The notes: generated by a model not told the origin, from the letters alone. Shown: positions 10,380 through 62,949, counted from the stretch's first letter. The stretch: DNA of 64,000 nucleotides from Ignavibacteriota bacterium (GCA_963808715.1 CAWEHG010000009.1:8257-72256), one strand, 5' to 3'. Program-made: numbers and translations.

Positions 10380-11768
10380 TCAGTCCTGGACGGTTTTGAT
10401 GAAGAATGTGTAGTAGGGTTTCTTCTCGGCCATCCGCAGCATCATCAGTCCGAGTTCCCTCGCGTGATAGTCCCCCCACATCGATGACTCCCCGCACGGT
10501 ACTTTTCTCCCGTCCGGGACGTGGTCCCACCCGTTCGGCCGGTGATAGACCGAGTGGAGGATCAGCCCCTGATGATCTTCGTCCGTCGAGAGGTAGGGCT
10601 CGTCGAAGAGGGTCTTTGCGATCGTCAGGCCCGCCTGGAGGTATCTCCTCCCCGGCTTGAACCGGCCCAGGGTATTGAAGTACCCGCCGAGACGCAGGAA
10701 TCCCTGGGCGGCGATGGCCGCCGCGGAGCTGTCGACCGGCTCGTGCTCGTTGTAGGGATCCGCCGGAGCGTCGAGGTAGTTCCCCAGTTTGACCAACCCG
10801 GGAGCACCGGTGTCCCAGTAGGGGATCCCGTCGGTGGAGGTCTGCTCGATATAGAAATCGGCCACCGCTTCCGCGGTCTCCTCGAAGCGTTTCAGCGCCT
10901 CGTCCTTGCCTCCGTAGGGTTTCAGGGCTTCGTCCGTGAGGGTTCTCAGGAATTCCAGCTCTTCGGCGTACCCGAGCAGTATCCAGGCGAGCCCGCGGGT
11001 CCAGGTGCTGAACGGGCTGTATCCCTGCTGGGTGCTGGGACAGCGGTAGGAGCCGTCGTTCAGGTTGAAGATCGACTCGTGGGCGACCCGTCCGCGAATG
11101 TCGTAGGAGTCCCGTCCCTTCCCGAAGTAGACGTTGTACTTCGAGGTGGCATCCGCATGCGCCATGAGGCGGTCCAGCAGGGAGATCTTCCGGTCCCGTT
11201 CAGCCATCAGCACGTGCCCGAGCTGGTGGGCCACCGCGAGCGACCGGACCGACCGGATCGTATCCGCGAACAGGGAATGCGGCCCGTTGAACGAATAGAT
11301 GAACCCCTCGCCGTTGCCCAGGTCTGTCCATCGGCTCGCCTGGACCGCGCCGCTCACCTTCAGGGCCATCTCGCAGAATGCTTTCTGCCACTCGTCGGCC
11401 GGGAGGATCCCTTCGCGCAACAGCCTGTGCAGGTTGCCGTAGGTGCTGACGTTGTTGAAGCCGTGGTCGTGCACGCCGATGTGGCTGACATGGGTGGCCA
11501 TATGCTTGAGGGTCCCCTGCCGGCCGATCTCGAGGAACTGATCGTCGCCGGTGGCGTCGAACTGCAGGATCGCGGAACCGAACTGAAACCCCTGGGTCCA
11601 CTCGGTCCATCCGCGCGAGGTATAGTTCCCCTTCTCGGTGAAGACCGGCGTTCCGCGCCCGGGGTCCCAGGAGCGCTGCAGACCCAGGATCTTGGTCCCC
11701 GACAACTCGAAAAGCCTCCCGATACGCTCCCGGAGGTCCATCACGTCGACATCATAATCGATCAGCAT
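10380..11768 (-). CDS. GH88/GH105-like unsaturated glucuronyl hydrolase family protein (six-hairpin), cytoplasmic
   Basis: Intact 462-aa ORF with no signal peptide. Blocks HDHGFN, YSPFSTWTRGLAWILLGY, DSSAAAIAAQGFLRL, CGESSMWGDYHARE. Family call is from motif style, not a search. Confidence 0.6.
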   Translation of the reverse strand: MLIDYDVDVMDLRERIGRLFELSGTKILGLQRSWDPGRGTPVFTEKGNYTSRGWTEWTQGFQFGSAILQFDATGDDQFLEIGRQGTLKHMATHVSHIGVHDHGFNNVSTYGNLHRLLREGILPADEWQKAFCEMALKVSGAVQASRWTDLGNGEGFIYSFNGPHSLFADTIRSVRSLAVAHQLGHVLMAERDRKISLLDRLMAHADATSKYNVYFGKGRDSYDIRGRVAHESIFNLNDGSYRCPSTQQGYSPFSTWTRGLAWILLGYAEELEFLRTLTDEALKPYGGKDEALKRFEETAEAVADFYIEQTSTDGIPYWDTGAPGLVKLGNYLDAPADPYNEHEPVDSSAAAIAAQGFLRLGGYFNTLGRFKPGRRYLQAGLTIAKTLFDEPYLSTDEDHQGLILHSVYHRPNGWDHVPDGRKVPCGESSMWGDYHARELGLMMLRMAEKKPYYTFFIKTVQD

Positions 11769-11804
11769 ACGAATCCTCTATTCAATAGTTCGCTACGATC
11801 CAGC

Positions 11805-12593
11805 CTACAGCCGCCGCAGATGGAAGCCACCGTCCACGTAGATCACGGAGCCGGTGGAGTACGGGAAATCCCCCGCGACCAGCGACGCCGCGGCCTTCCC
11901 CGTGTCCTCGTCGGTCCCCCAGCGGCGCTGCGGGACGAGCCCCTGCTCGATCATCGTGTCATACTTCTCTTTGACCCCGCTCGTCATGTCCGTTGCCATG
12001 ATCCCCGGGCGCAGTTCGTACACCTGAATACCTTCATGAGCCAGGCGCACCGCCCAGAGCTGGGTCACCATGGTCAGTCCCGACTTGGAGACGCAGTACT
12101 CTCCGCGGTTGACGGAGGCAGTGTTCGCCGAAATGGACGACACCATGACCACGGAGAACCCGTGCGGCAGCAGGGGCCTGACCTTCCCGGAAAGCCAGTA
12201 GTTCGCCAGGATCTGCGTCAGGAAGAACGGGCCTTCCAGGTTCACCTGCATGACCTCGCGAAATGAATCGAGGGAGGTCTGGGTGACATCCGCCCGAACC
12301 CGCGGGCCCATGCCGGCGTTGTTGACCAGCGCATCCACCCGCCCGAATGCCTCAAGGCTCCGTTCCAGCAGGGAAGCCCGGTCAGCCGCTTCACCCACGT
12401 TCGCCTGGACCGCGACGAACCGCTGGCGCGGATCGCTCTTGACCGATTCGCACAGGCCCACGGTCTCTTCGGCTGCACGGCTGTTCCCGGCGAAGTTCAC
12501 CACCACCGAAAAACCCTTGCGCGCCATCGAGCAGGCGATACCCCGCCCGAGGCCCCTGCTGGCGCCGGTAACGAGGACGACAGGGAGTTCCAT
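11805..12593 (-). CDS. SDR family oxidoreductase (3-ketoacyl-reductase-like)
   Basis: ATG 12593 (MELPVVLVTGASRGLGRG, TGxxxGxG). NNAG. YCVSK (YxxxK). It forms the 3' part of track ORF 11805..13550, whose 5' part is out-of-frame read-through of the next gene. Confidence 0.85.
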   Translation of the reverse strand: MELPVVLVTGASRGLGRGIACSMARKGFSVVVNFAGNSRAAEETVGLCESVKSDPRQRFVAVQANVGEAADRASLLERSLEAFGRVDALVNNAGMGPRVRADVTQTSLDSFREVMQVNLEGPFFLTQILANYWLSGKVRPLLPHGFSVVMVSSISANTASVNRGEYCVSKSGLTMVTQLWAVRLAHEGIQVYELRPGIMATDMTSGVKEKYDTMIEQGLVPQRRWGTDEDTGKAAASLVAGDFPYSTGSVIYVDGGFHLRRL

Positions 12594-12601
12594 GGCTGCT
12601 C

Positions 12602-13510
12602 CTATGTTGTTCCTTTGCGCCGCAGGGCTGCGAGCGCCTTCCTGGTGAATACCGTGCGTGCCAGGTCGGCATAGAGCTCCGGCCGTCGCGAAGCGGTGAC
12701 CGCCGCGGTCCGCCCGAACTTCTTCTCGAAAAAGAAATGGGTGATCCGCTGGCGCTCGAGATCCAGGTCCTGCGTCACCATGCCGACCCCCCGGCCCGCA
12801 TCGGCGAGGATCAGCCCGTCCCTTCCGATGATGCTCGTCCGCCCCAGCATCTTTCCGGGCATCCAATCCCCTTCTTCGTATCCGTACGAAGCGGAGACCA
12901 GATACAGTCCGGTGTCCACGGCACGGGCACGGTACCGGATCTCCCAGTCGACCTCGCCCCACGAGCCCTGGACGTGGGGGAAGAGCAGCACCTCGGCCCC
13001 GCGCAGCATCAGCACCTGCGCGACCTCGGGGTACTCCACATCCATGCAGGTCATGATCCCCACGCGGCAGCAATCGAGCGAGAACACCGTAAGGTCGTTG
13101 CCGGCCCTGATCCCCAGCCGCTGTTCCTGGATGATGGGATGCGCCTTCTGATAGCACCCCGCGATCCTTCCGCGCCGGTCGAGGAGCACGACCCAGCTGC
13201 TCAGGACCCCCCGGTACGTGCCGAACACCGGCACCGCAATGTTCATCCGGTGCGCCCGCGCCATGATCCCCACCGCCTCGACGAACGGTCCGGGGATCGG
13301 GTCGGGCCGGTAGTCGCGGCGGGCAGACGAGGTGCTCCGGTGGTAGAGATTGGAGTACTCCCCGAGAAGGACCAGGTCCGGAGACTGCCGGCCGGCGGTT
13401 TCGAGCATATCGCAGAGGACCTCGAGGGTCCGCCGTCGCCGTTCCTGCAGGTTCCTGCCCGGGACGTCCGCGGGAAGCTGGACACCCATCACTCGCACGA
13501 TCCTTGCCAT
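12602..13510 (-). CDS. Carbon-nitrogen hydrolase (nitrilase superfamily) protein
   Basis: Intact 302-aa ORF. Glu-Lys-Cys triad context LGEYSN, YQKAHP, GIMTCMDVEYPE. Confidence 0.8.
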   Translation of the reverse strand: MARIVRVMGVQLPADVPGRNLQERRRRTLEVLCDMLETAGRQSPDLVLLGEYSNLYHRSTSSARRDYRPDPIPGPFVEAVGIMARAHRMNIAVPVFGTYRGVLSSWVVLLDRRGRIAGCYQKAHPIIQEQRLGIRAGNDLTVFSLDCCRVGIMTCMDVEYPEVAQVLMLRGAEVLLFPHVQGSWGEVDWEIRYRARAVDTGLYLVSASYGYEEGDWMPGKMLGRTSIIGRDGLILADAGRGVGMVTQDLDLERQRITHFFFEKKFGRTAAVTASRRPELYADLARTVFTRKALAALRRKGTT

Positions 13511-13512
13511 GG

Positions 13513-15273
13513 CTACCCCTTCTCACGTGATACGTACAGCAGCACCCCACCCATCGCCAGCAGGAAGAGCCCGGCGATCAGGTTGATGATGGACGGGGAG
13601 ACCGGCCCCGACGGAAGTGCCACGCATGCCCCCAGGACCACTGCCAGGACGACGCATACCTGTCCGAGAAGCCTGTAGACCCTCAGCCCGGCCGGATCGA
13701 ACGCCGCCCGTTCCGCGATCACCGGCTCTCGCAGATCCCGTTCCAGCGCGAGCAGGCCCGCGTGCCGCGGGTCGTCTTTGCGGAACCAGAACGCCGATCC
13801 GAAGAACACCAGGGTCGCCGCCGCGGTCTCGCTGAGCATGTTCCGGGTGAACGCCTGGTCTTTCCACAGTCCCAGGGACATCAGGACGACCGCGGTCACG
13901 ATCGCGGCGGTGCAGGAGGCCATCCCCGACCACCAGGGAGTGCGCCGGTAGATCATCCCCAGGGCGACGGGCATCATGAACGCCGCCCCGAGGGAATAGT
14001 ACTCCAGCGCGAACGCGAAGGCCCCCCCCAGCTTGGGGATGAACAGTGCCGTGACCGTCCCGAGAGCCCCCACGACCAGCATGGTCATCCTGGCGAACCG
14101 CAGCTGCCGCGACTCCGGCGGTTCTCCCCGGCCGAACCGCTTTTTCAACGGCACGTAGATATCGCGGGTCAGCGTCGCCGCCAGCCAGTTGAACGCGTCG
14201 TTCGCCTGACCGAGCGTGGCCGAGAGGATGGCGGAGACGACGAATCCGATCATCCCGTGGGGGAGCAGGAGGAGCGCCAGGCTCACGAAGGACGCTTCCG
14301 CAGGGACGGCAAGCGAGGGCCAGATGGAAGCGATATCGGGGAAGATGATCCGCGACGCCATGACCGGGAGGATCCAGAGCAGGGGACCGACCAGCGACAG
14401 GACCGCGCACAGGATCGCCATCTTGCGCGCGTCCCGTTCGTCCGGTACGCTCTGGTATCGCTGCACGAGTGACCAGGCGACGTTGTACCCCAGCATGATG
14501 TTGATGAGGTACGAGAGCAGGAAGAGCGGTTCCGCCATCTCCCCGTTCAGTCCGAAGTACCCCGGCGGGGCCTCCCGGACCAGGCGCTCGATGCCGCCGA
14601 AAAATCCTGTCCCCGCCCCGAGGTACTGGAACGAGACCACGAACACGATCAGCGTCATCGTCAGGATGATCACGAACTGGACCGAATCCGAAAGCACCGC
14701 CGCCCAGAGCCCGCCGACCATCGTATAGACGGTCATGACGGTCCCGACGACGAGGATCGACATCTCGAACCCGGTGAGCGATACGAACCCGAGATCGAAG
14801 CTCCTGTCGGCGAATCCCAGGGCCGTCGAGACGAAAATGCAGAGGATGTAGAGCCCCTGGCCGATCCCCACGATCTGAGGGATCACCGCCGTGACCGAGT
14901 AGAAATAGGTGGTGGACGGAGAGAACCTCCGGCTCAGGAACTCCAGCGGCGTGTTGATGCGGGCACGGCGCCACCGGCTGGAAAAATACGCCGCCCCGAC
15001 GAGGTAGGCCCAGAAGGCGGAGGTGAAGATCAGGATGGTCCCCGCGCCCCGCAGGTAGATGAACCCCGCGGCGGCCACGAACATGAAGGCCGAGAACCCG
15101 GAGACCCAGTTGGAAAGTCCCGCGATGAGCCACGGGACCTTCCCCCCTCCCTTGAAGTACTCGTCCGTGTTCCTGTTCTTCCGGGCCGCATAGAACCCGA
15201 CCCAGAGGACGATCACGAAATAGAGGACGATCAGCCCGTAGTCGATGCCGTTGACCGTGTTGAACGCTGGCAT
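13513..15273 (-). CDS. Sodium:solute symporter (SSF) family transporter, copy C
   Basis: Intact 586-aa ORF made of many hydrophobic segments. SSF-type N-terminus YFVIVLWVGFYAARKNRNTDEYFKGGGKVPW. Starts 2 nt upstream of the CN-hydrolase gene. Confidence 0.8.
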   Translation of the reverse strand: MPAFNTVNGIDYGLIVLYFVIVLWVGFYAARKNRNTDEYFKGGGKVPWLIAGLSNWVSGFSAFMFVAAAGFIYLRGAGTILIFTSAFWAYLVGAAYFSSRWRRARINTPLEFLSRRFSPSTTYFYSVTAVIPQIVGIGQGLYILCIFVSTALGFADRSFDLGFVSLTGFEMSILVVGTVMTVYTMVGGLWAAVLSDSVQFVIILTMTLIVFVVSFQYLGAGTGFFGGIERLVREAPPGYFGLNGEMAEPLFLLSYLINIMLGYNVAWSLVQRYQSVPDERDARKMAILCAVLSLVGPLLWILPVMASRIIFPDIASIWPSLAVPAEASFVSLALLLLPHGMIGFVVSAILSATLGQANDAFNWLAATLTRDIYVPLKKRFGRGEPPESRQLRFARMTMLVVGALGTVTALFIPKLGGAFAFALEYYSLGAAFMMPVALGMIYRRTPWWSGMASCTAAIVTAVVLMSLGLWKDQAFTRNMLSETAAATLVFFGSAFWFRKDDPRHAGLLALERDLREPVIAERAAFDPAGLRVYRLLGQVCVVLAVVLGACVALPSGPVSPSIINLIAGLFLLAMGGVLLYVSREKG

Positions 15274-15279
15274 GGACGT

Positions 15280-17604
15280 CTACCGTTTTGACGGCGACTT
15301 GAACCCCGGGACCCTCCACTGAAAGTCGGGATCCACGTAGGGTTCGTCGTTCTCGTGTCCCTGCATGAGTGCGATCTTCCTCCGGAGCTGGTCGGCGAAG
15401 TTCCCGTGGTAGTAGATGAAGGTGGTCTCCCCGACGTCCGAGAAGATCATCCACGGGGTCCGTGAGCGTTCTGCGTGTGCCAGAAGCGCCTTCGTGTTCT
15501 CGATCTCGTCGAGCACCATCTGCCGGAGGATCTCGCGGCATTTCTTCTTTGTTGACTCGTCGCGCGACTCCAGGTAGTTGTGCACCCCCGCGATCCACGC
15601 GGTCACGTTCCGCTGGTTGCGGTACCAGCAGAGCATCGCCACGTACCGGTCGTGGAGGTCCTGCGCTGCGGCCTCCCCCTTGCCGCCCCGGGCGCGCGCC
15701 AGAAGTGCGGCGGAACGGTCGTGCGCCTGCTGCATCACCGGCATGACGTTCTCGTTGATCATGGAAAGACATCGCATCGCGTCGTCCGGCTGGATCAGGT
15801 CGAACCCGACGTCGTACCGGAAGTCGACCCGGCAACGGTTGTGCGGAGGAGCCAGAAGGAACTCCTCATAGTATCGCCGGTCCTCCTCGGAGATCTTTTC
15901 GATGTCGGGGACGATCGGGCGGACGAACAGCCGGTACCAGACCCCCCAGCCGGAATAGATCTGCACCGGGACCGGGAAGGCCCTGTAGGCGTCGTCCGAC
16001 AGGTGCCACAACTGGACCAGCTCCGGGGCGAGCTCCGGGCCGATCCACTCCGCCGCTTTCGAAGCCACGAACCGGTCGTACGACAGTCCCGGATCGGCCT
16101 GGAACGCCCTCAGCAGCTCTTCGTTGATGTTGAAGGGTGTCAGGGAACGCGGGGTCGTGCCGCCGGTGTAGGCCAGCGTCGATACGGACTGCCGGGCCAT
16201 GGCGACGAGCTTCTCGTGCACCAGTCGCGGGAACGGAACGCCCAGCAACGGCTCATGGTTCCAGACGGAGCCGCCGGAGAAGTAGACGTCCGTTTCAGCC
16301 CCTTTGGTCCGGATCTGATCCATGACCGTCTTCTCTGCCGGATCGAACCCGTTGAACAGGGCCGTGCCGAGCGTGGCTTTTCGTTCCGGGTATCGGGGAT
16401 GCTTGTACTCTACCTCCCATCCCCGGGAGACCAGCGAACCGGTTTCCACGTCGATCCCGTCCTCCAGCTGGGCCCACAGGTATTTGTGTTCCGCGACGAA
16501 GGCCTCCAGGCGGAGCAGTGTACGGAACTTCGGGTTGACCTTGCGGCCCGCGTCGCGCAGGACCTTGTGGAAGCGGATCAGGTTGTTCGCGGCCGACTCG
16601 GCGATCTCGGTGTCCCCTTTCCACTCGCGGATGACGTAGCCCCCCCCGTTCCGTCCGACGTACAACGAGCTCGTGTACTCGAAGCCGGCGCCGCTGTCGT
16701 TGGACCAGATGGCGATGAAGTCCAGCAGAGGGACCTCCCGCACGAGGTTCTCCATCAGCTCGGCGTAGTGTTCCCGTACCACCGGATGGGCGATGGAAAG
16801 GTTGTACCGCGGATGCCAGCTCCGGATGGGATGATCCACCCTCGCCCCCCGGAGCATGGGATACCGCTCCAGCAGCGCGTCCGGAACGGATCTCGGCTCG
16901 AAGCAGGTGATCCCGGCCGAGAGGCCGTACTTCTCGGCCAGCGCCGCGTTCGTCTTCAGGAAATTCAGGTTCGCCTGAAGGTAGTCGCTGTCATAGTACC
17001 CCCGGTTCAGGCGGCTGGAGACGAACTGGTCGAGCGCGGGGCAGTAGGTATAGAACCTGTGGAGCACTTCTCCGACGGGGCCGCGCTCGAAGGGGACCGC
17101 AAAGGCGAGACCGTTCACTTCGGCGTGTGAGAACCCGAGTCGGGCGAGGTTCCGGATATGTTCTTCCCGGTCGAAATCCCGGAGGGTCCGGTTGTGCATC
17201 GTCAGGAAGCTGTCGTACGAAGGGCGGACCCGCGGGAATGCCGGCGTGATCGTTTTCCCCTGGCGGAACTCCTCCACCGGCAGGTCGATCCATTCTTCGA
17301 TCGCCGAACTCCACGTCCGGAAGAGGAGATGTGGGGCGGACGCGAGGATCTCGATCCCCCCTCCGGGGAGCAGCCGGACGATCCCCCACCCGTTCGGGCC
17401 GCGCAGGGCCGGGTGCTCGGGAGCGGCACCGGTCTGGACGGCGATACGAACGCCCGTGGCGGGCAGCGGTCCGCCCGTTCCGGGCGTCGCCCGGGGAGCC
17501 CAGCCCCCCCTCAGTTCTGACGCAACGGTCTGCTCCACCCGCGGACCGCCGGCGGAGGTGTGGATCGTCGTGACCGTGGAGAAGAATTCCCTAAGTGTTG
17601 GCAT
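15280..17604 (-). CDS. Large cytoplasmic protein of unknown family (family X, intact copy)
   Basis: Intact 774-aa ORF with AGGGAG 8 nt before ATG 17604 and no signal peptide. Shares long blocks with the broken copy at 59703-61916 (RGARVDHP, NDSGxGFE, SSLYxGRNGG, IREWK). No named family recognised. Confidence 0.7.
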   Translation of the reverse strand: MPTLREFFSTVTTIHTSAGGPRVEQTVASELRGGWAPRATPGTGGPLPATGVRIAVQTGAAPEHPALRGPNGWGIVRLLPGGGIEILASAPHLLFRTWSSAIEEWIDLPVEEFRQGKTITPAFPRVRPSYDSFLTMHNRTLRDFDREEHIRNLARLGFSHAEVNGLAFAVPFERGPVGEVLHRFYTYCPALDQFVSSRLNRGYYDSDYLQANLNFLKTNAALAEKYGLSAGITCFEPRSVPDALLERYPMLRGARVDHPIRSWHPRYNLSIAHPVVREHYAELMENLVREVPLLDFIAIWSNDSGAGFEYTSSLYVGRNGGGYVIREWKGDTEIAESAANNLIRFHKVLRDAGRKVNPKFRTLLRLEAFVAEHKYLWAQLEDGIDVETGSLVSRGWEVEYKHPRYPERKATLGTALFNGFDPAEKTVMDQIRTKGAETDVYFSGGSVWNHEPLLGVPFPRLVHEKLVAMARQSVSTLAYTGGTTPRSLTPFNINEELLRAFQADPGLSYDRFVASKAAEWIGPELAPELVQLWHLSDDAYRAFPVPVQIYSGWGVWYRLFVRPIVPDIEKISEEDRRYYEEFLLAPPHNRCRVDFRYDVGFDLIQPDDAMRCLSMINENVMPVMQQAHDRSAALLARARGGKGEAAAQDLHDRYVAMLCWYRNQRNVTAWIAGVHNYLESRDESTKKKCREILRQMVLDEIENTKALLAHAERSRTPWMIFSDVGETTFIYYHGNFADQLRRKIALMQGHENDEPYVDPDFQWRVPGFKSPSKR

Positions 17605-18675: not shown

Positions 18676-19611
18676 TGCAGAGGCCCCCGTTGTTCCACCA
18701 GAACTCCTCCTTCCAGGGCGGCGATCCCGGCGCTCGAGGCGCAAGAGACCTCCCACCTCTGCTGCATTGGCGGCCCCAGCGGCCGCCCCCCGCACGAGAG
18801 CGCGGGCGAAACTCTCCCCTGCCTCGAGCGACGCCAGAAAGCCGGCGATCATGGAGTCGCCGGACCCCGTGGCGTTCACCGGACGCACCGGGGGCGGAAC
18901 GATCTTCCACCAGTCTGTCCCATCGGTCGCGTAGCACGGTCGCGGGCCGTCAGTGATGATGGCAGAGCGGATCCCTATCCCCACGAACCGCCGGAGCGCC
19001 ATTCTGAATTCCTCGTCGGTTTCCAGCGTCCCGCCGAACGTCTGCCGGAACTCATCCGCATTGACCTTGACCATTTCCGGCAGCGCCTCCACCCCCAGCC
19101 GGAACGTTTTCCCGTAGGAATCCAGAGCGGAGGCCTTTCCGGCCCGCCGGGCGGCGCCGATGATCCGGGCGTAGACGTCGTCGGTCGCCGCGCAGGGCGA
19201 GCTCCCGCAACAGACCACCCACCGGGCTCCGGGGAAGAGGGCAACACACTTCGCCACCAGAGCGTCCGCCTCGGCCGACGTCACGGTGTGGGGCGGTTCG
19301 AAGATCGCCGTCCAGGTGCCGTCCGGTTCCCGGTAGGTCACCCCCTCGCGCGTGGCGGAGGCGACCTCGACGAAATCGTGCGGGATCCCTTCCGCGGAGA
19401 GCAGATCCGCCAGCATTTCACCCACCGGTCCGCCCCAGCATCCCGTCGCCACTGTCGGCACGCCGAGCAGGTGCAGCTGGCGCGCGACGTTCACCCCCTT
19501 GCCGCCCACCACCATGCCTACGTGGGTCGCCCGGTGGGTCCTCCCCCGCGTGAGGTTCTCCACCTCGACCGTCTTGTCGAGCATCGGGTTGAGCGTGACC
19601 GTCAGGATCAT
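18672..19611 (-). CDS. PfkB-family hexose-phosphate kinase (1-phosphofructokinase/tagatose-6-P kinase type), probable frameshift near 3' end
   Basis: ATG 19611 overlaps the aldolase stop (ATGA). MILTVTLNPMLDKT, GGKGVNVARQL, NATGSGDSMIAGF. Shifting one base near 18750 gives ..AGIAALEGGVLVEQRGPLQ-TGA, and this TGA (18672-18674) overlaps ATG 18675. Confidence 0.7.
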
Positions 19612-20439: not shown

Positions 20440-20460
20440 ATCGTTCCTCAGCCTCGATCG

Positions 20461-23841: not shown

Positions 23842-23898
23842 GCGGAGGAAGCGATCGATATCAGGCCGTGGGACGGGAAGAGGAGATCATGGAGTCGT

Positions 23899-24836: not shown

Positions 24837-24863
24837 ATGAAAAGGATCGCCGCGGCCCGTTTC

Positions 24864-25998: not shown

Positions 25999-25999
25999 G

Positions 26000-57195: not shown

Positions 57196-58791
57196 TCAAC
57201 GATACTCCACGATCACATTCGTGTTCCCCCTGACCGGGAACGCCGCGTCCGCGTAGCAGCTCTGCTCCACACGGCTCGCCCTGTGGCGCACCGTGCGCCC
57301 GTTGACCCTGAGCGCCGCCGGCCGCGTTCCGGCCGGAAGCTGCAGATGAAGCGCCACGTCGGCATTTCCCCGAACTTCCAGAGCGATCGTCCTCTGCTCC
57401 GGACGATGGACATAGGCGTACGCCAGGCCGGCACCGGAGGCCGCGTAGGAGACCGAAACCTCGACCTCCGTGCATGCCGCGGAGATCCAGCGCGGCGACA
57501 ACCGGACGGAGCGGAACAGACAGCTCAGGTCCTCGATCCCGGCGAGCCCTTCGATCAGGGCATACAGCATGGCCGACGAGCCCCATCCGTCGGTCGGCAT
57601 CGCGTCGGGACTGGTGCTGGTCTCGATCGTGGAGGGCCGGCCGTCGGGGAAATACCAGAGGAACGTCTTCCGGTCCCGGGTCAGCTGCTCGTACTTGAGC
57701 AGCTGCGCGCACCCGTATTCTTCCAGCCCGTGCTCGAACGCCGCGCGGGCCAGTTCCCCTCCCACCAGGGGCATGATCCCTCCGTTGCAGTACATCCCGG
57801 GGACGATCTTCTCGTCGCCGAAGATCCCTGCCGGAAAAGGGGGATCCACACTGAACCACTCGGCAAAGGTGTCGGACCTCTCGCTCCGGCGCTGGTATTC
57901 GCGCAGGATGGAGACCGCCATCCCATGGTCCGCGAGGCCGCGGTTGATGTCCATCGGGTTGCTGAGCGTGAGTTGAGCCTCCTCATCGACCCCGTTCACG
58001 GAGCCGGGGACGAGGGGAACCCGGTGGCGGTAGAACGTGCCGTTGAACGACGCGGCGTTCGCGCGACGGCGAAACTTCCCGGCGTACGTTTCCCAGCCCT
58101 TCGCCCGCGCTTTCTGTCCGAGGGAGCCGTACATCCGCGCCAGCAGCCGGAAGGCCTCGTAGTATCCGGAGCTGTCCCCGTGCATGATCCCCCAGTACGT
58201 ATCGTCCGTGACCTGGAAGTTCAGCCAGTGGTGACGCCCGGCCGTGTAGTCGAAGTCCCAGGTGTCCATGGTGTAGGCGCGCTTGACCAGCTTGTGCGAC
58301 GGATCCCAGCGCCACGGGTCGCTCAGGACGTAGCGCATCGCCCGCTCGGCATGGGGGAGCATCCGTTTCATCCAGGCCCGGTCTCCGGTGGCCTGCCAGG
58401 CGAGGTAGAGAGCCTTGATGAACCGGTATTCCACGTCGGCTTCCACCGGGACCCGCACGAACTTCAGCCAGTTCTCCCGTTCGCAGGGGACCTTCTCCGG
58501 CTGCATGGTGAAGTAGTCGAACAGCCAGCCGTCGGCCGTCTGGGTCTCGGCGAACCGTTCAACGGTGCTGGTCATATCCGGTTCCCAGTACTTCGCCCCT
58601 CGAAGCATGTCGGAATGATCGCGGATCCAGATCGCGGGCGTATCGGGCGAGCGGTAGCCACGCACGGGTTTGCCCATCACGTTGAAGGTGATGGTATCAT
58701 GCTCCAGGAACCACCGAATGCGCTCGACGAGGGCGTCGAGCCGGGCGTTGCCGGTGCGGATGGTGGTCTGCGGTTGAGCCGTGCGGGCCAT
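57196..58791 (-). CDS. Cytoplasmic six-hairpin-glycosidase-like protein, family not recognised
   Basis: ATG 58791 (MARTAQPQTTIRTG) inside track ORF 57196..59136. 531 aa with no signal peptide. AIWIRDHSDMLRG, YTMDTWDFDY, MYCNGGIMPLVGGELARA, PTDGWGSSAMLYALIEGLAGI. Confidence 0.5.
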   Translation of the reverse strand: MARTAQPQTTIRTGNARLDALVERIRWFLEHDTITFNVMGKPVRGYRSPDTPAIWIRDHSDMLRGAKYWEPDMTSTVERFAETQTADGWLFDYFTMQPEKVPCERENWLKFVRVPVEADVEYRFIKALYLAWQATGDRAWMKRMLPHAERAMRYVLSDPWRWDPSHKLVKRAYTMDTWDFDYTAGRHHWLNFQVTDDTYWGIMHGDSSGYYEAFRLLARMYGSLGQKARAKGWETYAGKFRRRANAASFNGTFYRHRVPLVPGSVNGVDEEAQLTLSNPMDINRGLADHGMAVSILREYQRRSERSDTFAEWFSVDPPFPAGIFGDEKIVPGMYCNGGIMPLVGGELARAAFEHGLEEYGCAQLLKYEQLTRDRKTFLWYFPDGRPSTIETSTSPDAMPTDGWGSSAMLYALIEGLAGIEDLSCLFRSVRLSPRWISAACTEVEVSVSYAASGAGLAYAYVHRPEQRTIALEVRGNADVALHLQLPAGTRPAALRVNGRTVRHRASRVEQSCYADAAFPVRGNTNVIVEYR

Positions 58792-58793
58792 GA

Positions 58794-59579
58794 TCACTCC
58801 CTGGCGATGACGGGGAACAGGGGCCCGTGGAACTCCTCCCCGGGCACAAGGTTGCCGCGGTCGCCGACGAGGTGCGGATGGCTCTTGTAGGTGATCCCCT
58901 GGGGGATGTAGATCGTCACCATCGCCCGCCGCGGCGCGTCGGTGGTATTGGCCCCGGCATAGTGCAGCGTGAGGCCGTCGTGGAACGTGCAGCTTCCCGC
59001 CGGCATCTCCACCGTCACCGGCTTCACCCGGGCCGCCGGGGGAAGGACCTCCAGAATGCTTCCCGGGGCCGCGTTGCCAAGATCCACAGCCTCCAGCGGA
59101 CCCAGCTTGTGGGAGCGCGGGATGAAGGACATGCATCCGTTGGCGACCGAGACGTCGTCGAGGGCCATCCAGCAGGAGAGAGCGCCCCCCTGGTTCATCG
59201 GCCAGTAGACCTTGTCCTGGTGCCAGGCGGTCTCCTTGCTGTCCTTCGGATACTTGACGAGCGCCTGGTCATGCCAGAGGCGGACCGACCGGGAGCGGGT
59301 GAGCCGGCGCGCGATCTCGCCGATCTTCGTGGTATGCGCATACTCCTCGAAGAAGGGGTCCCGCTCCCAGAGATTGACCATTTGCAGGAAGACCTTGGTG
59401 TAGCCCTCGTCGCTCCGGGGTCCGAGGTTGAGCTGTTTCTGGCGCACCTCTTCCGCGGCGCGGTCAACGGCGTCCCGCACTCTGCGCACCTCTTCGGGCG
59501 TCAGCACGTTGTCCAGACGGATGAAGCCGTTCTCCTGGTAGAAGACCACCTGCTCTTCGGTGATCGGATACTTTTCCAT
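58794..59579 (-). CDS. Phytanoyl-CoA dioxygenase (PhyH) family Fe(II)/2-oxoglutarate oxygenase
   Basis: ATG 59579 with GAGGAGG upstream. MEKYPITEEQVVFYQENGFIRL. WHQDKVYW (HxD). SCTFHDGLTLHYAGAN (distal His). Intact. Confidence 0.8.
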   Translation of the reverse strand: MEKYPITEEQVVFYQENGFIRLDNVLTPEEVRRVRDAVDRAAEEVRQKQLNLGPRSDEGYTKVFLQMVNLWERDPFFEEYAHTTKIGEIARRLTRSRSVRLWHDQALVKYPKDSKETAWHQDKVYWPMNQGGALSCWMALDDVSVANGCMSFIPRSHKLGPLEAVDLGNAAPGSILEVLPPAARVKPVTVEMPAGSCTFHDGLTLHYAGANTTDAPRRAMVTIYIPQGITYKSHPHLVGDRGNLVPGEEFHGPLFPVIARE

Positions 59580-59620
59580 GCCCCCCTCCTCAGCGATGAT
59601 GTTCTCTGATCTTTGTTTGC

Positions 59621-59679
59621 CACGGAGACACGGAGGCGAACTTTGGGTGAGCAATACGACAATCCTCCGTGTCTCCGTG
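59621..59679. repeat. 16-bp perfect inverted repeat (CACGGAGACACGGAGG / CCTCCGTGTCTCCGTG) with 27-nt loop
   Basis: Read directly, arms 59621-59636 and 59664-59679. It lies in the largest spacer of the array (59580-59702), 24 nt downstream of the family-X copy 2 stop on the coding strand. No U-tract follows. Confidence 0.4.
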
Positions 59680-59702
59680 CCTCCGTGGCCAACAGTGTGA
59701 AG

Positions 59703-61916
59703 CTATGGCATGCGCCACATGTAGTCCGGGTCGATGCGCGGGATGTCGTCGATGTGCCGTTCCATCAGCGCGATCTTTTTCTCGAGCAACTCCCCGAAAT
59801 TCTCGCCGTAGCTGTGCAGCGTCTCCCCGAACCGGGAGACCGGCAGGAACATGACCCCGCTCTTGTGCCAGAGCTCCAGCAGTGTCCGGGCCGAGTCCAG
59901 TTCGCTGAGCATCATGGCCCTGCAGAGCGACCGCGCGGCGGCCTGGTCGTCGGGGGTCTTCGCCTGCAGGTACCCGTGTACGCTTTCCGTCCAGGCCATG
60001 GTGTTCTTCATCGTCGTGTAGAAGCACCGGGCAGCGATCAGGCGGTCGCGCAGGTCCGCGAAGACGGCCCGGGCGTCGCGGGCGATGCGCTGGCGTCGCA
60101 GCACCTTGCCGCAGCGCGCAAGCGCCTCGGCCAGCGGAGGCAGGACGTCGCGCTCGATGGCCTTGCGCCGTTCGCCGGCCTGCTCCGGCGTAAGGAAGTT
60201 CCACATCATGTCGTTGTTCAGATCCACGCGCGCCGGGTTGTTGAACGTCGCCAGCAGAAAGTCCTCGTAGTAGGCGCGTTCCGGTTCCGGGATGGCATCG
60301 ATGTCGGGGACCAGCGGGCGCACCCAGAGGCGGAACCAGGGGAAGCCGAAGGTGCTCATCGGGAACACCGGAAGGAAATCCGCGGACCGCAAGGTCGCTC
60401 AGGGCCCACAGTTCCACCAGTTGCGGCGCGAAACGGTCGCTCACCCACGAACGCGCGACCTGCAGCAGCCGCTCGTCGATCTTCCCGCCGCCGCCGAACT
60501 GCACCCAGCGGACCACCTCACCGTTGACGTCGTAGGGGACCAGTGACCGGGGAACCGCCCCCGCCAGTGCCGCGCCCGTCGCGGCAGCTCCGGACAGCCG
60601 TTCGTGCACGAGCCAGGGGAAGGGAAACCCCAGGACGTTGGTGTCGGTCAGATCCAGCTTCAGGTGGCGCCATGCGCCCCCGGCGGCCAGAGCCTTTTCG
60701 TCCTCGGGGGTGGTCGCCCGTTCGAAGAAGGCGAAATCCCCGGCATCGATCCCATCGCCCAGGTCGCGGGATCAGGAATTTCCGTTCGGCGTAGAACGGG
60801 CCCAGGTCGCAGACCAGCCGGAACGACGGATTCACCGCGCGGGCCTCGTCCCGGAGCAGCCGGTAGTAGGTCAGGACGTTTTCCGCCGCCGTCCGCGCGA
60901 TCTCGTCGTTGTCCTTCCACTCGCGGATAAGGTACGGTCCCCCGTTCCTGCCGGCGTAGAGCGAGCTGACGAACTCGAATCCCGATCCGCTGTCGTTCGT
61001 CCAGACGTGGATGAATCCGAGGTCCGGGACGGCACGCAGCACGCCCGCATGAGCTCGCGGTAGTGTTCCTGCACCGCGGGGTGAGCCATCGCCAGCGTGT
61101 ACCGCGGCCGGAAGGTCTCCCGCGGGTGGTCGACCCGGGCGCCGCGGAGAAATCCATATCGCGCCCAGAACTCCTCGGGCATCGACCGCGGCGAGTTGAT
61201 GTGGAGACCCGGGGACCAGTCCGTACCGCCGCGCGAGGCGGCGTTCTCGCTCCAGGGCGGCGAGATTCGCCTCAGGTAGTCCGGCGGATAGTATCCCGCC
61301 GAGCAGCGCGGCTCGATCGACGAACTGGTCGAGGTCCGGACTGTAGTCGTAGAACCAGAAGTACCGGTCGCCGGGAGGGCCTGATTCGTACGGGCGGGGG
61401 ACGCCGAGGCCGTTGATCGCTGACGTGGGTGAATCCCAGCCGCGCCAGCTCCGCGAAATAGTCCTCGCGGCGGAAACGTTTCGAGAACCGGAGGCTGCCG
61501 ACGACGAAGTCGCTCAGATTGCGAAGCCAGGCAGGCCGGGGGACGATCGTACGGCCCCCGGCGAAGGCGTCGACGGGCTCGTCGCAGCCACTCTTCGAGA
61601 GGCTCACCGTCAGGGCGAAAAGGAACGAGGGATGGGAGGCCGAGAGGAGTCCGGTCCCTCCGGGATCGAACCGGGCGGACATCCAGCGGGTGACCTCCGG
61701 TTCCGGCGGGGCCCCTCCGATGCGGAGGTGCAGGGTCTTCTGTCCCGCGGCGGACTCCCCCGTCATGACGATCTCCGCGTGCCGCGCAACGGCCGTACGG
61801 AACAGTTCCGCCACGGTCGCGGCGGCCGGAGGTGCATCGGGTGGAAGCGCAAGTCTCTGGAGATCCCCGAGCAGCTCGCGCACGGTCTGGATGGATGTGT
61901 CAGGACCGAGCTGCAT
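59703..61916 (-). pseudogene. Family X copy 2 (paralogue of 15280-17604), at least five frame breaks
   Basis: ATG 61916 (MQLGPDTSIQTV). Pieces in ORFs 61272..61916, 60871..61182, 60518..61042, 59590..60609 and 59703..60392. RGARVDHPRETFRPRYTLAMAHPAVQEHYRELM, FIHVWTNDSGSGFEFVSSLYAGRNGGPYLIREWK, KKIALMERHIDDIPRIDPDYMWRMP. Confidence 0.55.
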
Positions 61917-61919
61917 CGG

Positions 61920-62949
61920 TCAGGCGCCGAGCTCCTTCCGGACGATCCGCGCCCCTCGCGACCATGGCCTGCAGTTTTCCGAAGGCCCGTTCGCGAGGCA
62001 TGAATTTCATGCCGCAGTCGGGGCTGAGCCAGAGTTTCTCCGCCGGGATGTATTCCAGCGCCTGGCGGATGCGGCGGGCCACCAGATCCGGCGATTCGAC
62101 CTGCTCCGACCTTCACGTCGATCACCCCCACCACCACCTCTTTGTCGATCTTGTAGGTCTTGAACAGGTCGAGACCCGCGCCGTCCGAGACGGCGAATTC
62201 CAAGCTGATCTGGTCCGCGTGCGTCTCGAGGATGGCCGGGAACAGTTCGGCATACTGCCCGGAGAAGAGCTTCTTCAGCTGGTAGTTGCCGTAGCAGGTA
62301 TGGAGGGCGATCTTCGCCTTCACGCCCTTGACCAGCCGGTTGAACGACTCGACGAGCCAGGGCATATCCTGGGGATATCCGACCCAGATCGGTTCGTCGA
62401 TCTGGATGAAGTCGCATCCTGCGCCGACCAGGCCCTTCAGTTCCTCGTTCAGGATGTCCGCCAGGTCGAAGCACCAGTTCCCGGTCGGTCGTGTAGTATT
62501 CGTTCGTGGCCCGTTTGGCGAGCATCTGCGGGCCGGTGACGCAGACCTTCGTCCGATGCCTGGCGTACTCGCGAAGGAACCGGAAGTGGCGATCCATCCC
62601 GAGGCTCTCCTTCCTGCCGGACCTTGTCGCGAACGACCGGATCGGGCATCTGGATGGAGGGATCGAGATTGCCGATGGACTTCATCTTCCCCGCCATGTC
62701 GAACCCGTGGATCCGCATGGAGAAGAAGTTGACCATCGTTTCCCGCCGGAGCTCGCCATCGGTGATGAGGTCCACGCCGGCCAGTTCCTGGTCGGTGATC
62801 GCGGACTTGACCGCGTTGTCGTGCGCCTCCTCCACCTGGGCGGGGGTGAGGGCATGGCGTTTGCCAAGTTCGCGGACCTGGTCCAGCCATCTGGGATACG
62901 AGTAGCTGCCGATGACCGTGGTGGGGAGGAGCGGGAGGGGGTGCGGCAT
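61920..62949 (-). pseudogene. Cobalamin-independent methionine synthase (MetE C-terminal / Meth_synt_2) fold protein, four frame breaks
   Basis: ATG 62949 (MPHPLPLLPTTVIGSYSYPRWL). DLITDGELRRE, CDFIQIDEP, IALHTCYGN (His-x-Cys), LWLSPDCGMKF. Pieces in ORFs 62449..63042, 62007..62597, 61763..62890 and 61900..62082. The tail ..RIVRKELGA ends at TGA 61920-61922, 3 nt before ATG 61916. Confidence 0.6.

What the first reader, a model, noticed from the sequence alone, without database searches (positions are those of the whole stretch)
10380..62949. 36 consecutive same-strand genes over about 52.6 kb with ten 4-bp start/stop overlaps
Seen: after frame repair, every gene from 62949 down to 10380 is on the minus strand. 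Ten junctions are ATGA or GTGA overlaps (18672, 19608, 22774, 26897, 29589, 33425, 34446, 42554, 46461, 51277) and many others are 2-40 nt apart. Only two spacers exceed 100 bp: 59580-59702 with a hairpin and 47280-47388 ahead of the IclR gene. No SusC/SusD or TonB-receptor genes are present. Uptake appears to rely on three SSF symporters, and export on Sec, Tat and T9SS signals. Inference: this is a very long co-directional, translationally coupled catabolic super-cluster, organised differently from Bacteroidia PULs.
Basis: seen in the sequence. Interest (0 to 1): 0.6.

Follow-up and report, generated by a model that had tools for sequence, protein, structure and literature searches.

The report
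Conserved 59-kb one-strand glycan-catabolism gene array
An uncultured Ignavibacteria bacterium packs about 39 sugar-breakdown, transport and regulator genes head-to-tail on one strand over 59 kb, an order conserved across related genera; it most likely works as three or four tandem operons behind an outer-membrane TonB-type receptor, not as one giant operon.

Summary
After frame repair, checked against intact orthologues, 36 genes from 62949 to 10380 all lie on the minus strand. All ten ATGA/GTGA overlaps are real, and there is an eleventh at 23899-23902. 33 of 35 spacers are 60 nt or less; only 59580-59702 and 47280-47388 exceed 100 nt.

The run is longer than reported. It continues to 69786 (39 genes, 59.4 kb) and begins with a TonB-dependent-receptor gene, an 873-aa secreted protein and a PorV/PorQ-family gene.

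The whole array is collinear on one strand in two other genera. Its distal 20 kb is collinear in 14 more Ignavibacteria MAGs. This excludes mis-assembly and chance juxtaposition.

The many frame breaks are assembly errors. Independent contigs carry 1-nt indels at the break sites, and contig C2 is a second copy of 22.9-37.1 kb.

A single transcript is unlikely. All three spacers over 100 nt in the run open with a GC hairpin. A conserved TTGACA-N17-TAACAT promoter sits upstream of the receptor gene. A conserved promoter-plus-operator sits upstream of the internal iclR gene, and its 13-nt box occurs only three times in the genome.

SusD is absent from this lineage. No T9SS tail domain was found inside the array. 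This is a SusD-less PUL-like variant of moderate interest.

The parts
63156..64000 (-). PorV/PorQ-family outer-membrane gene. Its start is at 64176, beyond the window end. It is the third gene of the run; upstream lie an 873-aa secreted protein (66723-64205) and a TonB-dependent receptor homologue (69786-66764), in extended window coordinates on contig C9.
   Evidence: The G013 orthologue scores NF033709 168 bits against a cut-off of 90. Mapping. Receptor: CarboxypepD_reg plus a weak Plug hit, SusC N-terminus 53 bits against a 368-bit cut-off, and homologues that carry PF00593 and are named TonB-dependent receptor.
63102..63134 (-).
   Evidence: Fold -44 kcal/mol, z -2.8. G013 has a canonical stem plus T7 terminator at the same place, and G016 has a stem plus TCTTTG.
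62967..63077 (-). Regulatory spacer before the MetE-like gene: a 59-nt block (63019-63077) shared with G016, then five GATATC heptads (62967-63009).
   Evidence: No Rfam family matches. Heptad fold z -3.5.
61920..62949 (-). MetE-like (Meth_synt_2) gene; frame-broken in the window.
   Evidence: The G013 orthologue hits PF01717 at 1.2e-41. Mapping. Indels at 61956 and 62110 in RNA contigs.
59703..61916 (-). Family X copy 2 (about 740 aa, no Pfam hit); frame-broken.
59580..59702 (-). 123-nt spacer with a 17-bp hairpin (59619-59689); specific to this genome.
   Evidence: Fold -47.1 kcal/mol, z -3.0. The orthologous spacer is 16 nt in G013 and 34 nt in G016.
58794..59579 (-). PhyH-family dioxygenase.
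   Evidence: PF05721 4.8e-39.
57196..58791 (-). 531-aa cytoplasmic protein with no family hit.
54873..57161 (-). GH15-like (alpha/alpha)6 enzyme a; the orthologues carry a Tat leader.
   Evidence: TIGR01577 2.6e-13, below cut-off. MKRREFL leader in G013 and G016.
52570..54856 (-). GH15-like enzyme b; one frame break near 53.9 kb.
51277..52542 (-). Class-V aminotransferase-fold gene, split over three frames.
   Evidence: PF00266 on three pieces. 1-nt indels at 51610 and 52279 in RNA contigs.
49351..51280 (-). SSF symporter A; ATGA overlap at 51277.
47389..49306 (-). SSF symporter B, a tandem copy. G013 and G016 have only one symporter here.
47280..47388 (-). 109-nt spacer with three elements: a post-stop hairpin (47357-47385), a promoter-like TTGCCT-N17-TATCGT (47330-47358) and an operator-like CACTAATTAAACGCTATTC (47302-47320).
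   Evidence: The box is conserved in G013 (as a perfect palindrome) and in G016.
46461..47279 (-). IclR-family regulator.
   Evidence: PF01614 8e-42 and PF09339 1.9e-12.
45661..46464 (-). Xylose-isomerase-like TIM-barrel gene; ATGA overlap at 46461.
   Evidence: PF01261.
44620..45624 (-). GFO/IDH/MocA oxidoreductase; absent in G013 and G016.
42554..44559 (-). Heparinase II/III-like protein 2 with a Tat leader. It is one gene; the apparent split at 43900 is a frame break.
   Evidence: PF07940. A single 680-aa ORF in G013.
41309..42557 (-). Class-III aminotransferase; GTGA overlap at 42554.
   Evidence: PF00202.
39680..41306 (-). Amidohydrolase_2; start repaired.
   Evidence: PF04909.
37278..39651 (-). 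Secreted protein of about 790 aa with no family hit.
30580..37261 (-). Module BNR3 (36260-37261), P2 (34446-36222), BNR2 (33425-34449), BNR1 (32433-33428), P1 (about 30580-32389). All are Sec-exported. ATGA overlaps at 34446 and 33425.
   Evidence: Sortilin/BNR Pfam hits.
29589..30576 (-). PfkB-type kinase 2; heavily frame-broken.
26897..29592 (-). GH38 alpha-mannosidase; many compensating frame breaks. ATGA overlaps at 29589 and 26897.
   Evidence: The G013 orthologue has four GH38 domains..
23899..26900 (-). FAH-family hydrolase (26000-26900), M20 peptidase/deacylase (24884-25998) and ROK kinase or regulator (23899-24836).
   Evidence: Orthologue Pfam hits.
17659..23902 (-). URO-D-like 4 (22774-23902), heparinase-like 1 (20461-22777), DeoC/LacD aldolase (19608-20439), PfkB kinase (18672-19611) and URO-D-like 3 (17659-18675). 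ATGA overlaps at 23899, 22774, 19608 and 18672.
10380..17604 (-). Family X copy 1 (15280-17604), SSF symporter C (13513-15273), CN-hydrolase (12602-13510), SDR (11805-12593) and a GH88-like protein (10380-11768), which ends the run.
   Evidence: This block is syntenic in 14 further MAGs.

Best explanation
WHAT IT IS. This is a vertically inherited catabolic locus of 39 genes over 59.4 kb, all on one strand. Its host is an uncultured Ignavibacteria (Bacteroidota) lineage that has no SusD. The likely substrate is a complex glycan that may contain amino sugars or methylated sugars.

SHOWN.
- All genes lie on one strand.
- Spacers are extremely short.
- Eleven junctions overlap by 4 nt.
- Order and orientation are conserved across genera.
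- A TonB-dependent-receptor homologue sits at the head of the run.
- The frame breaks are assembly errors.

INFERRED MECHANISM.
1. A conserved sigma-70-type promoter (TTGACA-N17-TAACAT, 70058-70030) drives an outer-membrane module: the receptor, an 873-aa secreted protein and a PorV/PorQ-type barrel.
2. A GC hairpin after that module damps or stops transcription.
3. Further units follow: MetE-like to X2; PhyH to SSF-B; and iclR to the GH88-like gene (27 genes, 36.9 kb, no spacer above 60 nt).
4. The internal IclR regulator probably binds a box, T[AT]AAACGC[CT]ATTC, found just downstream of the receptor promoter and in front of its own gene. That would coordinate the tandem units.
5. Enzymes exported by Sec or Tat (GH15-like, heparinase-like, BNR propellers, family P) cut the polymer outside the cytoplasm.
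6. Three SSF symporters import the products.
7. Cytoplasmic enzymes feed the products into central metabolism. These include GH38, family X, the GH88-like protein, deacylases, aminotransferases, kinases, an aldolase and oxidoreductases.
8. Within units, the 4-nt overlaps and SD-like sites allow coupled translation.
For: STRAND AND COUNT.

OVERLAPS AND SPACERS.

SYNTENY.
- G013 has 41 plus-strand genes over 58.4 kb with 14 overlaps of 4 nt.
- G016 is collinear with block indels.
- The distal block is collinear on one strand in 14 other MAGs.

HEAD MODULE.

PROMOTER AND OPERATOR.
- The element is conserved in three genera.
- At the 9-of-12 threshold, only three sigma-70-like sites lie on the coding strand of the 71.5 kb scanned. 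Two are upstream of the receptor gene. The third overlaps the P2 start codon.
- The 13-nt box occurs three times in 4.19 Mb, and two of those are these two sites.

HAIRPINS: a hairpin follows the stop codon directly in all three long spacers. G013 has a canonical terminator after the PorV/Q gene.

PROMOTER TYPE: this genome's upstream regions are enriched for TTGACA and TATATT, not for the Bacteroidia TAnnTTTG motif.

COMPARTMENTS: taken from the N-termini of the G013 orthologues.

FRAME BREAKS ARE ERRORS.
- Contigs from other metagenomes and metatranscriptomes show 1-nt indels at predicted break sites: 24595, 31591, 33168, 34351, 34722, 41213, 41408, 51610, 52279, 61956 and 62110.
- Contig C2 duplicates 22872-37099 at 89.8% identity with 207 gap columns, exactly over the dense break zone.

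EXPRESSION: low-depth metatranscriptome contigs lie all along the array. They cross five junctions (12593/12602, 41272-41309, 51277, 57161-57196, 61916-61920) and run from SSF-B through most of the spacer before iclR (47303-47697).
Against: - No transcript ends were mapped. The RNA data are short unstranded contigs of 95-99% relatives, and they may contain DNA.
- The three hairpins lack U-tracts in this genome. They could be mRNA-stabilising or processing sites rather than terminators.
- One RNA contig (47303-47697) runs through the SSF-B hairpin into the iclR spacer. This fits read-through.
- The iclR promoter matches consensus at only 8 of 12 positions.
- IclR binding to the shared box is inferred from position and rarity only.
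- The substrate is unknown. Several large families (X, P, the 531-aa and 790-aa proteins) have no annotation.
- Gene boundaries in the 24.6-34.8 kb zone rest on orthologue-guided repair.
- This is the third longest same-strand run in the genome, so long arrays are a habit of the genome. The pattern may partly reflect replication-strand bias (negative cumulative GC skew).
Confidence: 0.6

Rival explanations
1. One reading: one giant, translationally coupled operon. The 36 genes (or all 39) would be transcribed as a single polycistronic RNA of 52-59 kb.
For: - All genes are on one strand, and 33 of 35 spacers are 60 nt or less.
- Terminator-like and sigma-70-like sites are no more frequent than in shuffled sequence.
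- An RNA contig spans the SSF-B 3' end and most of the iclR spacer.
- G013 leaves almost no room for a promoter between the PorV/Q terminator and the MetE-like start.
Against: - Strong hairpins follow the stop codon in all three long spacers, and G013 has a canonical terminator after the PorV/Q gene.
- A conserved promoter-like and operator region lies in front of iclR in three genera.
- The size is far beyond mapped operons. One whole-transcriptome map found primary operons of 2-23 genes, including a 16-gene, 17-kb example (PMC9549626).
- G016 has spacers of 137-247 nt inside the array.
Confidence: 0.12
2. A frozen gene order with many independent promoters. The genes would share a strand mainly because of replication-strand bias and the inertia of an old arrangement. 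The array would be a neighbourhood of many small operons with unrelated substrates, not one functional system.
For: - The genome has several other same-strand runs of 50-96 kb.
- Cumulative GC skew falls steadily across the window.
- Relatives gain and lose blocks of one to three genes without disturbing the rest.
- The enzyme content is heterogeneous.
Against: - With a median spacer of 6 nt and eleven 4-nt overlaps, there is no non-coding room for promoters at most junctions.
- One regulator box is shared by the head promoter and the iclR promoter and is almost unique in the genome.
- Exported, transport and cytoplasmic steps of one pathway type are interleaved.
- Collinearity holds across 60%-identity genera.
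Confidence: 0.15
3. Artefact or decay. The array would be a mis-assembly or chimera, or a locus rotting into pseudogenes, which would explain the more than 30 frame breaks.
For: - Dense frame breaks lie at 24.6-34.8 kb and 59.7-64 kb.
- MAG completeness is estimated at only 61.8%.
- A second, 90%-identical contig (C2) covers the same region.
Against: - The same order and strand occur in G013, G016 and 14 other MAGs from other samples.
- Near-identical independent contigs carry the missing or extra base at the break sites.
- Breaks inside GH38 compensate each other within tens of bases, so tblastn still aligns 775 residues in one frame. That is typical of consensus noise, not of decay.
Confidence: 0.04

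Closest known systems
Bacteroidota polysaccharide utilization loci (Sus-like PULs, as catalogued in PULDB)
   Same: - An outer-membrane TonB-dependent transporter gene stands at the head.
- Exported glycan-cutting enzymes, inner-membrane sugar importers, cytoplasmic finishing enzymes and a dedicated regulator are clustered together.
- The host belongs to the same phylum in GTDB terms.
   Different: - There is no SusD partner. It is absent from this genome and from 19 of 21 relatives.
- The receptor scores far below the SusC/RagA cut-off (53 against 368 bits).
- The regulator is IclR-type, not HTCS, ECF/anti-sigma or SusR.
- Promoters look sigma-70-like and SD sites are used.
- All 39 genes lie on one strand over 59 kb with a median spacer of 6 nt. 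From my own knowledge, this exceeds most described PULs in size and uniformity of direction.
- PULDB reports susCD tandems in some Ignavibacteriae (PMC5753385). The absence is therefore specific to this sub-lineage.
CAZyme gene clusters (CGCs) / non-Bacteroidetes PULs as defined in dbCAN-PUL (PMC7778981)
   Same: Carbohydrate-active enzymes (GH38, GH15-like, GH88-like, heparinase-like), transporters (three SSF symporters and the TonB-dependent receptor) and a transcription factor (IclR) lie in one tight cluster.
   Different: The cluster is unusually large, strictly unidirectional and conserved across genera. Many members have no CAZy or Pfam assignment. It contains URO-D-like and MetE-like methyl-transfer folds, and it lies next to a corrinoid cassette.
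Very long bacterial operons (ribosomal-protein, nuo, mamAB)
   Same: Genes lie on one strand with tight or overlapping junctions, and SD sites sit inside upstream genes.
   Different: - Mapped primary operons reach about 2-23 genes. Examples are 17 genes for mamAB, 16 genes over 17 kb for nuo, and 21 genes over 9 kb for ribosomal proteins (PMC9549626).
- Even the iclR-to-GH88-like block alone would be 27 genes over 36.9 kb.
- No transcript mapping exists here.
IclR-regulated catabolic operons (e.g. pca/pob, kdg-type regulons; from my own knowledge)
   Same: An IclR-family gene comes first in a catabolic unit. An AT-rich palindromic box lies between its promoter and its start codon, which suggests autoregulation.
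   Different: The box recurs 22.7 kb upstream at the promoter of the outer-membrane module on the same strand. The regulator gene lies in the middle of a co-directional array rather than divergent from its target.

Membership tests
Sus-like PUL (Bacteroidota) | Adjacent susC/susD gene pair | tested here: not met
   PF07980 (SusD_RagB) finds nothing in G000 or in 19 of 21 relatives, while the B. thetaiotaomicron control is positive. No protein in G000 reaches the TIGR04056 cut-off. The gene after the receptor encodes an 873-aa protein with no SusD match.
Sus-like PUL (Bacteroidota) | TonB-dependent outer-membrane transporter linked to glycan-degrading enzymes | tested here: met
   The head gene (69786-66764) has CarboxypepD_reg plus a weak Plug hit. 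It matches the SusC N-terminus at 1.6e-14. Its homologues carry PF00593. It is co-directional with the GH38, GH15-like and heparinase-like genes and conserved in G013 and G016.
CAZyme gene cluster (dbCAN CGC) | At least one CAZyme plus a transporter and/or transcription factor within a few genes | tested here: met
   GH38, three SSF symporters and IclR lie in one array.
Single operon (one transcription unit) | Same strand with short spacers throughout | tested here: inconclusive
   33 of 35 spacers are 60 nt or less, but 206-, 123- and 109-nt spacers exist in the 39-gene run.
Single operon (one transcription unit) | No internal promoter or terminator | tested here: inconclusive
   Consensus scans find nothing above shuffled expectation. 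However, hairpins follow the stop codon in all three long spacers. G013 has a canonical terminator after the PorV/Q gene, and a conserved promoter-like and operator region precedes iclR.
Single operon (one transcription unit) | One continuous transcript | not testable with these tools
   Only short, unstranded, low-depth metatranscriptome contigs of related strains are available. They cross five junctions and part of the spacer before iclR.
IclR-family regulator | N-terminal HTH_IclR plus C-terminal IclR effector domain | tested here: met
   PF09339 1.9e-12 and PF01614 8e-42.
T9SS cargo | C-terminal Por_Secre_tail domain (TIGR04183) | tested here: not met
   About 115 matches occur in the genome and none lies inside C9:18636-78042. 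Only a weak PorZ-like C-terminus is seen on the upstream 873-aa protein. Type-B CTDs were not tested.

The most novel reading that the evidence does not exclude
The 27-gene, 36.9-kb stretch from iclR (47279) to the GH88-like gene (10380) may be transcribed as one mRNA from the iclR promoter. It has no spacer above 60 nt and nine 4-nt overlaps, and it is equally tight in G013. The IclR protein may additionally gate the receptor promoter 22.7 kb upstream through the same rare operator. If so, this would be one of the longest catabolic operons known. It would also define a SusD-less, IclR-wired PUL architecture typical of this Ignavibacteria lineage, where TonB-receptor genes often head co-directional runs.
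Probability: 0.25. Interest if true: 0.65.

Novelty: new variant of a known kind. Interest (0 to 1): 0.45.

Why it matters
Ignavibacteria are abundant glycan degraders in soils, sediments and wetlands, but their polysaccharide systems cannot be found with the SusC/SusD rule used for Bacteroidia.

This locus offers a concrete alternative template. It has a TonB-dependent receptor, a secreted protein and a PorV/PorQ-type barrel at the head. A conserved, strictly one-directional train of about 36 enzyme, transporter and regulator genes follows. An IclR regulator may tie it together.

The locus is also a good test case for two questions:
- How long can a bacterial transcription unit be?
- How is stoichiometry managed across dozens of coupled cistrons?

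It carries a caution for annotation as well. In this MAG the locus looks full of pseudogenes only because of consensus errors.

Tried and rejected
- EXACT-PROTEIN LOOK-UP. A search for the window's SSF gene, meant to obtain public gene calls, found nothing on record.
- BACTEROIDIA PROMOTER MOTIF. TAnnTTTG is not strand-specifically enriched upstream of run-initial genes (12 sense against 10 antisense).
- SIGMA-70 AND TERMINATOR SCANS. Scans over 8-64 kb found nothing above shuffled expectation inside the array. The one internal 9-of-12 promoter hit (36247-36218) overlaps the P2 start codon and was rejected.
- RFAM. Gathering thresholds on the whole window and a permissive search of 62900-63200 gave only meaningless miRNA-model hits on the heptad palindrome.
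- PDB. A sequence search with the receptor orthologue matched only its CarboxypepD_reg-like N-terminus.
- T9SS TAILS. A TIGR04183 search found none in the array.
- NO FAMILY FOUND. Pfam and NCBIfam gave no family for family X, family P, the 531-aa protein, the 790-aa protein or heparinase-like 1.
- SECOND ARRAY. Annotating the second receptor-headed 57-kb run on C16 was abandoned because that region is shredded by frame breaks.
- EARLIER FINDINGS. Searches by words and by relatives returned nothing.
- PfkB/URO-D3 FUSION. This was considered because the two form one ORF as given. It was rejected on the orthologue C-terminus.
- MOBILE ISLAND. This was rejected. GC content is uniform, there is no tRNA, and the locus is inherited across genera.

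Full report
SOURCE. The window is contig C9:8257-72256 of a 4.19-Mb, 44-contig, 64% GC metagenome-assembled genome. Record titles of the closest genomes place it in the Ignavibacteria (Bacteroidota in GTDB terms).

CHECKING THE OBSERVATION. I trained a simple codon-usage gene caller on this genome. A six-frame coding-score plot from it shows minus-strand coding without interruption from 10380 to the window end. Many genes are split between frames, so I used relatives to repair them.
- The 774-aa gene at 15280-17604 has orthologues in 11 of 40 related genomes.
- I fetched 76 kb around it from two well-assembled genomes of other genera in the same family, G013 and G016.
- Their ORFs tile the window's minus strand in one unbroken order.
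- Merging pieces that are one gene in the relatives gives exactly 36 genes from 62949 to 10380.

OVERLAPS AND SPACERS. All ten listed junctions read ATGA or GTGA, and each is a true stop/start overlap after repair.
- At 18672, PfkB and URO-D3 form one 681-aa ORF in the sequence as given. The conserved PfkB C-terminus lies in the frame that stops at that TGA.
- At 22774, the ATG at 22777 opens a signal peptide that matches the orthologues.
- There is an eleventh ATGA at 23899-23902.
- Of 35 junctions, 11 overlap by 4 nt and 33 are 60 nt or less; the median is 6 nt. Only 59580-59702 (123 nt) and 47280-47388 (109 nt) exceed 100 nt.

THE FRAME BREAKS ARE ERRORS, NOT DECAY.
- Short-read-derived contigs from four unrelated metagenomes and three metatranscriptomes are 95-99% identical to the window. 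They carry single-base insertions or deletions at the places where the reading frame switches: 24595, 31591, 33168, 34351, 34722, 41213, 41408, 51610, 52279, 61956 and 62110. Several of these sit next to G or C runs.
- Inside GH38 the shifts compensate within tens of bases, so tblastn still aligns 775 residues in one frame.
- The 14,195-bp contig C2 of the same bin aligns end to end with window 22872-37099 at 89.8% identity with 207 gap columns. C2 is therefore a second assembly of exactly the dense break zone. Its presence probably split or confused the reads used for consensus.

THE RUN IS LONGER THAN REPORTED. Three more minus-strand genes lie upstream. They fall partly beyond the window (window coordinates extended on C9).
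- A PorV/PorQ-family barrel lies at 64176-63156. Its G013 orthologue scores NF033709 168 bits against a cut-off of 90.
- An 873-aa secreted protein lies at 66723-64205.
- A gene of about 1030 aa lies at 69786-66764.
  - Its G013 orthologue has CarboxypepD_reg domains and a weak Plug hit.
  - It matches the N-terminal third of the SusC/RagA model, far below that model's cut-off.
  - Its homologues carry the TonB_dep_Rec barrel and are named TonB-dependent receptor.
- A plus-strand gene starts near 70.19 kb, so the run ends there.
- The full run is therefore 39 genes over 59.4 kb.

IS IT MORE THAN CHANCE?
- This genome's strand-switch rate is 0.20 per junction. A geometric model then expects 0.25 runs of 36 or more genes; three are seen. 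This run is the third longest, after runs of 96 and 66 kb.
- 4-nt overlaps make up 11.7% of same-strand junctions genome-wide, against 31% here (P = 0.0016). The baseline mixes junctions within and between operons.
- The stronger argument is conservation.
  - G013 has 41 consecutive plus-strand genes over 58.4 kb with 14 four-nt overlaps.
  - G016 is collinear with some larger spacers.
  - The distal block (M20, ROK, URO-D4, heparinase-like 1, aldolase, PfkB, URO-D3, X1, SSF, CN-hydrolase, SDR, GH88-like) is collinear on one strand in 14 further MAGs from fens, groundwater, soil and other sources.
- Differences among genomes are clean block indels. Examples are the GFO gene, the amidohydrolase, the CN-hydrolase, the aldolase plus URO-D3, a second SSF copy, and extra genes in G013.

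CONTENT.
- Exported by Sec: the receptor, the 873-aa protein, the PorV/Q barrel, the 790-aa protein, three BNR propellers, two family-P proteins and heparinase-like 1.
- Exported by Tat: two GH15-like proteins, heparinase-like 2 and the class-V aminotransferase-fold protein.
- Membrane: three SSF symporters.
- Cytoplasmic:
  - methyl-transfer folds: the MetE-like protein and two URO-D-like proteins;
  - glycan-cutting or uncharacterised enzymes: GH38, the GH88-like protein, two family-X proteins and the 531-aa protein;
  - hydrolases and deacylases: an amidohydrolase, FAH, M20 and a CN-hydrolase;
  - oxidoreductases and related enzymes: PhyH, a xylose-isomerase-like TIM barrel, GFO/IDH/MocA and SDR;
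  - sugar activation and cleavage: ROK, two PfkB kinases, a DeoC/LacD aldolase and a class-III aminotransferase;
  - regulation: IclR.
- No T9SS tail domain (TIGR04183) lies inside the array, although the genome has about 115.
- SusD is absent from this genome and from 19 of 21 relatives, and nothing reaches the SusC cut-off. The lack of SusC/D is thus a lineage trait, although PULDB reports susCD pairs in some Ignavibacteriae (PMC5753385).

ONE TRANSCRIPT OR SEVERAL?
- This genome's upstream regions are enriched for TTGACA and TATATT, not for the Bacteroidia TAnnTTTG motif. SD-like motifs precede 19 of 37 starts, against a 16% background.
- At 9 of 12 matches, the coding strand of the 71.5 kb scanned has only three sigma-70-like sites.
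  - Two lie upstream of the receptor gene. The better one is TTGACA-N17-TAACAT at 70058-70030. It is conserved in G013 and G016 and is followed by a conserved GTAAAACGCCATTC...TAGTGAAA element.
  - The third overlaps the P2 start codon and is spurious.
- Terminator-like sites are no more frequent than in shuffled sequence, and none lies in a spacer.
- Even so, each of the three long spacers opens, right after a stop codon, with a strong GC hairpin. These are 63134-63102, 59689-59619 and 47385-47357, with z-scores from -2.5 to -3.0. At the first position G013 has a textbook stem plus T7 terminator.
- In front of iclR, all three genera keep a -10-like TAT..T element and an AT-rich box: CACTAATTAAACGCTATTC here, a perfect palindrome in G013.
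- The core T[AT]AAAC[GA][CA][CTA]ATT[CT] occurs only three times in 4.19 Mb. One copy is downstream of the receptor promoter, one is upstream of iclR, and one is near the end of C9.
- I therefore read the run as tandem units:
  - unit 1: receptor to PorV/Q;
  - unit 2: MetE-like to X2;
  - unit 3: PhyH to SSF-B (units 2 and 3 are fused in G013, where the X2-to-PhyH spacer is 16 nt);
  - unit 4: iclR to GH88-like (27 genes, 36.9 kb).
- IclR is the likely common regulator.

RNA EVIDENCE. Three sediment metatranscriptomes hold low-depth contigs of close relatives all along the array.
- They cross five junctions: 12593/12602, 41272-41309, 51277, 57161-57196 and 61916-61920.
- One contig runs from the end of SSF-B through the hairpin to 24 nt before the iclR start (47303-47697).
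- The locus is thus expressed in nature and neighbouring genes are co-transcribed. The contigs are short, unstranded and possibly contaminated with DNA, so they cannot place transcript ends.

COMPARISON AND VERDICT.
- The locus works like a PUL: an outer-membrane TonB-type transporter comes first, followed by exported depolymerases, importers, cytoplasmic enzymes and a regulator.
- It fails the defining SusC/SusD test, so it is not a Sus-like PUL. It does meet the looser CAZyme-gene-cluster definition.
- What stands out is the scale and discipline of the arrangement and its conservation. There are 39 genes on one strand with a median spacer of 6 nt.
- For comparison, one whole-transcriptome operon map found primary operons of 2-23 genes (PMC9549626).
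- Receptor-type genes sit at or near the 5' end of many other co-directional runs in this genome, so this may be the lineage's general way of building glycan loci.
- I rate it a new variant of a known kind. It is of moderate interest and depends on transcript mapping.

Noticed in passing
genome contig C2 (whole, 14195 bp) against window 22872-37099: C2 aligns end to end with this part of the array at 89.8% identity with 207 gap columns. It is a second assembly (strain variant or haplotig) of exactly the zone where the window is densest in frame breaks. Several genes are intact in C2 but broken in the window (GH38, P, FAH), and others the reverse.
   Followed up: partly
window 63019-63077 (minus strand): A 59-nt block upstream of the MetE-like gene (GGTCACC...CACGCGAAATACCGAAACGTGTACCC...GGTGACTTCCCCC) is conserved in G016 but not in G013. 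It matches no Rfam family. It could be an unknown leader or riboswitch-like element, or a protein binding site.
   Followed up: partly
C9:123736-123748 (outside the window): This is the third and only other genomic copy of the rare box T[AT]AAAC..ATT[CT] shared by the receptor and iclR promoters. It is intergenic, near the contig end, and may be another target of the same regulator.
   Followed up: no
whole genome; e.g. C16:56134, C31:227033, C34:14627, C23:16923, C35:86573, C40:104084: Of 28 CarboxypepD_reg-type TonB-receptor N-terminal hits, about a dozen lie within 2 kb of the 5' end of a same-strand run that continues 7-57 kb downstream. A receptor-first, one-directional array may be the general locus design in this SusD-less lineage.
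   Followed up: partly
C16:56134-113201: This is a second run of about 57 kb headed by a receptor-type gene. It is so fragmented by frame breaks (most calls are under 200 aa) that it could not be annotated. It marks another dense error zone in this MAG, whose estimated completeness is only 61.8%.
   Followed up: no
window 47389-51280: There is a tandem duplication of the SSF symporter. The copies match the single G016 orthologue at 61% and 85%. G013 and G016 each have one copy here. In the raw sequence the two genes plus the C-terminal part read as one 1317-aa ORF because of two frame errors.
   Followed up: yes
window 59619-59689; also C34:244608, C31:289250, C36:21236, C38:136453, C40:59166: The hairpin arm is built from CACGGAG heptads (CACGGAGGCACGGAGACACGGAGG). 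One-mismatch copies of the 16-mer occur at five other places, one beside the third family-X paralogue on C34. It may be a small dispersed repeat.
   Followed up: partly
genome-wide upstream regions; starts in window 10380-69786: Expression signals look unlike those of Bacteroidia. TTGACA and TATATT are enriched upstream of run-initial genes, TAnnTTTG is not, and SD-like GGAG/GAGG/AGGA motifs precede 51% of the array's starts against a 16% background.
   Followed up: partly
L018 (G013:C7:476001-496000) and neighbouring loci: G013 carries extra co-directional genes with no counterpart at these positions in the window. They are 356, 351, 368, 465 and 388 aa long. The last lies between X1 and the SSF gene and recurs in many MAGs. 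This shows that single genes are inserted or lost without breaking the array.
   Followed up: partly
window 9819-10487 (+) against 10380-11768 (-): The last gene of the array and a convergent plus-strand ORF overlap by about 100 nt at their 3' ends. A terminator-like stem plus T-run on the plus strand sits at 10376-10393.
   Followed up: no
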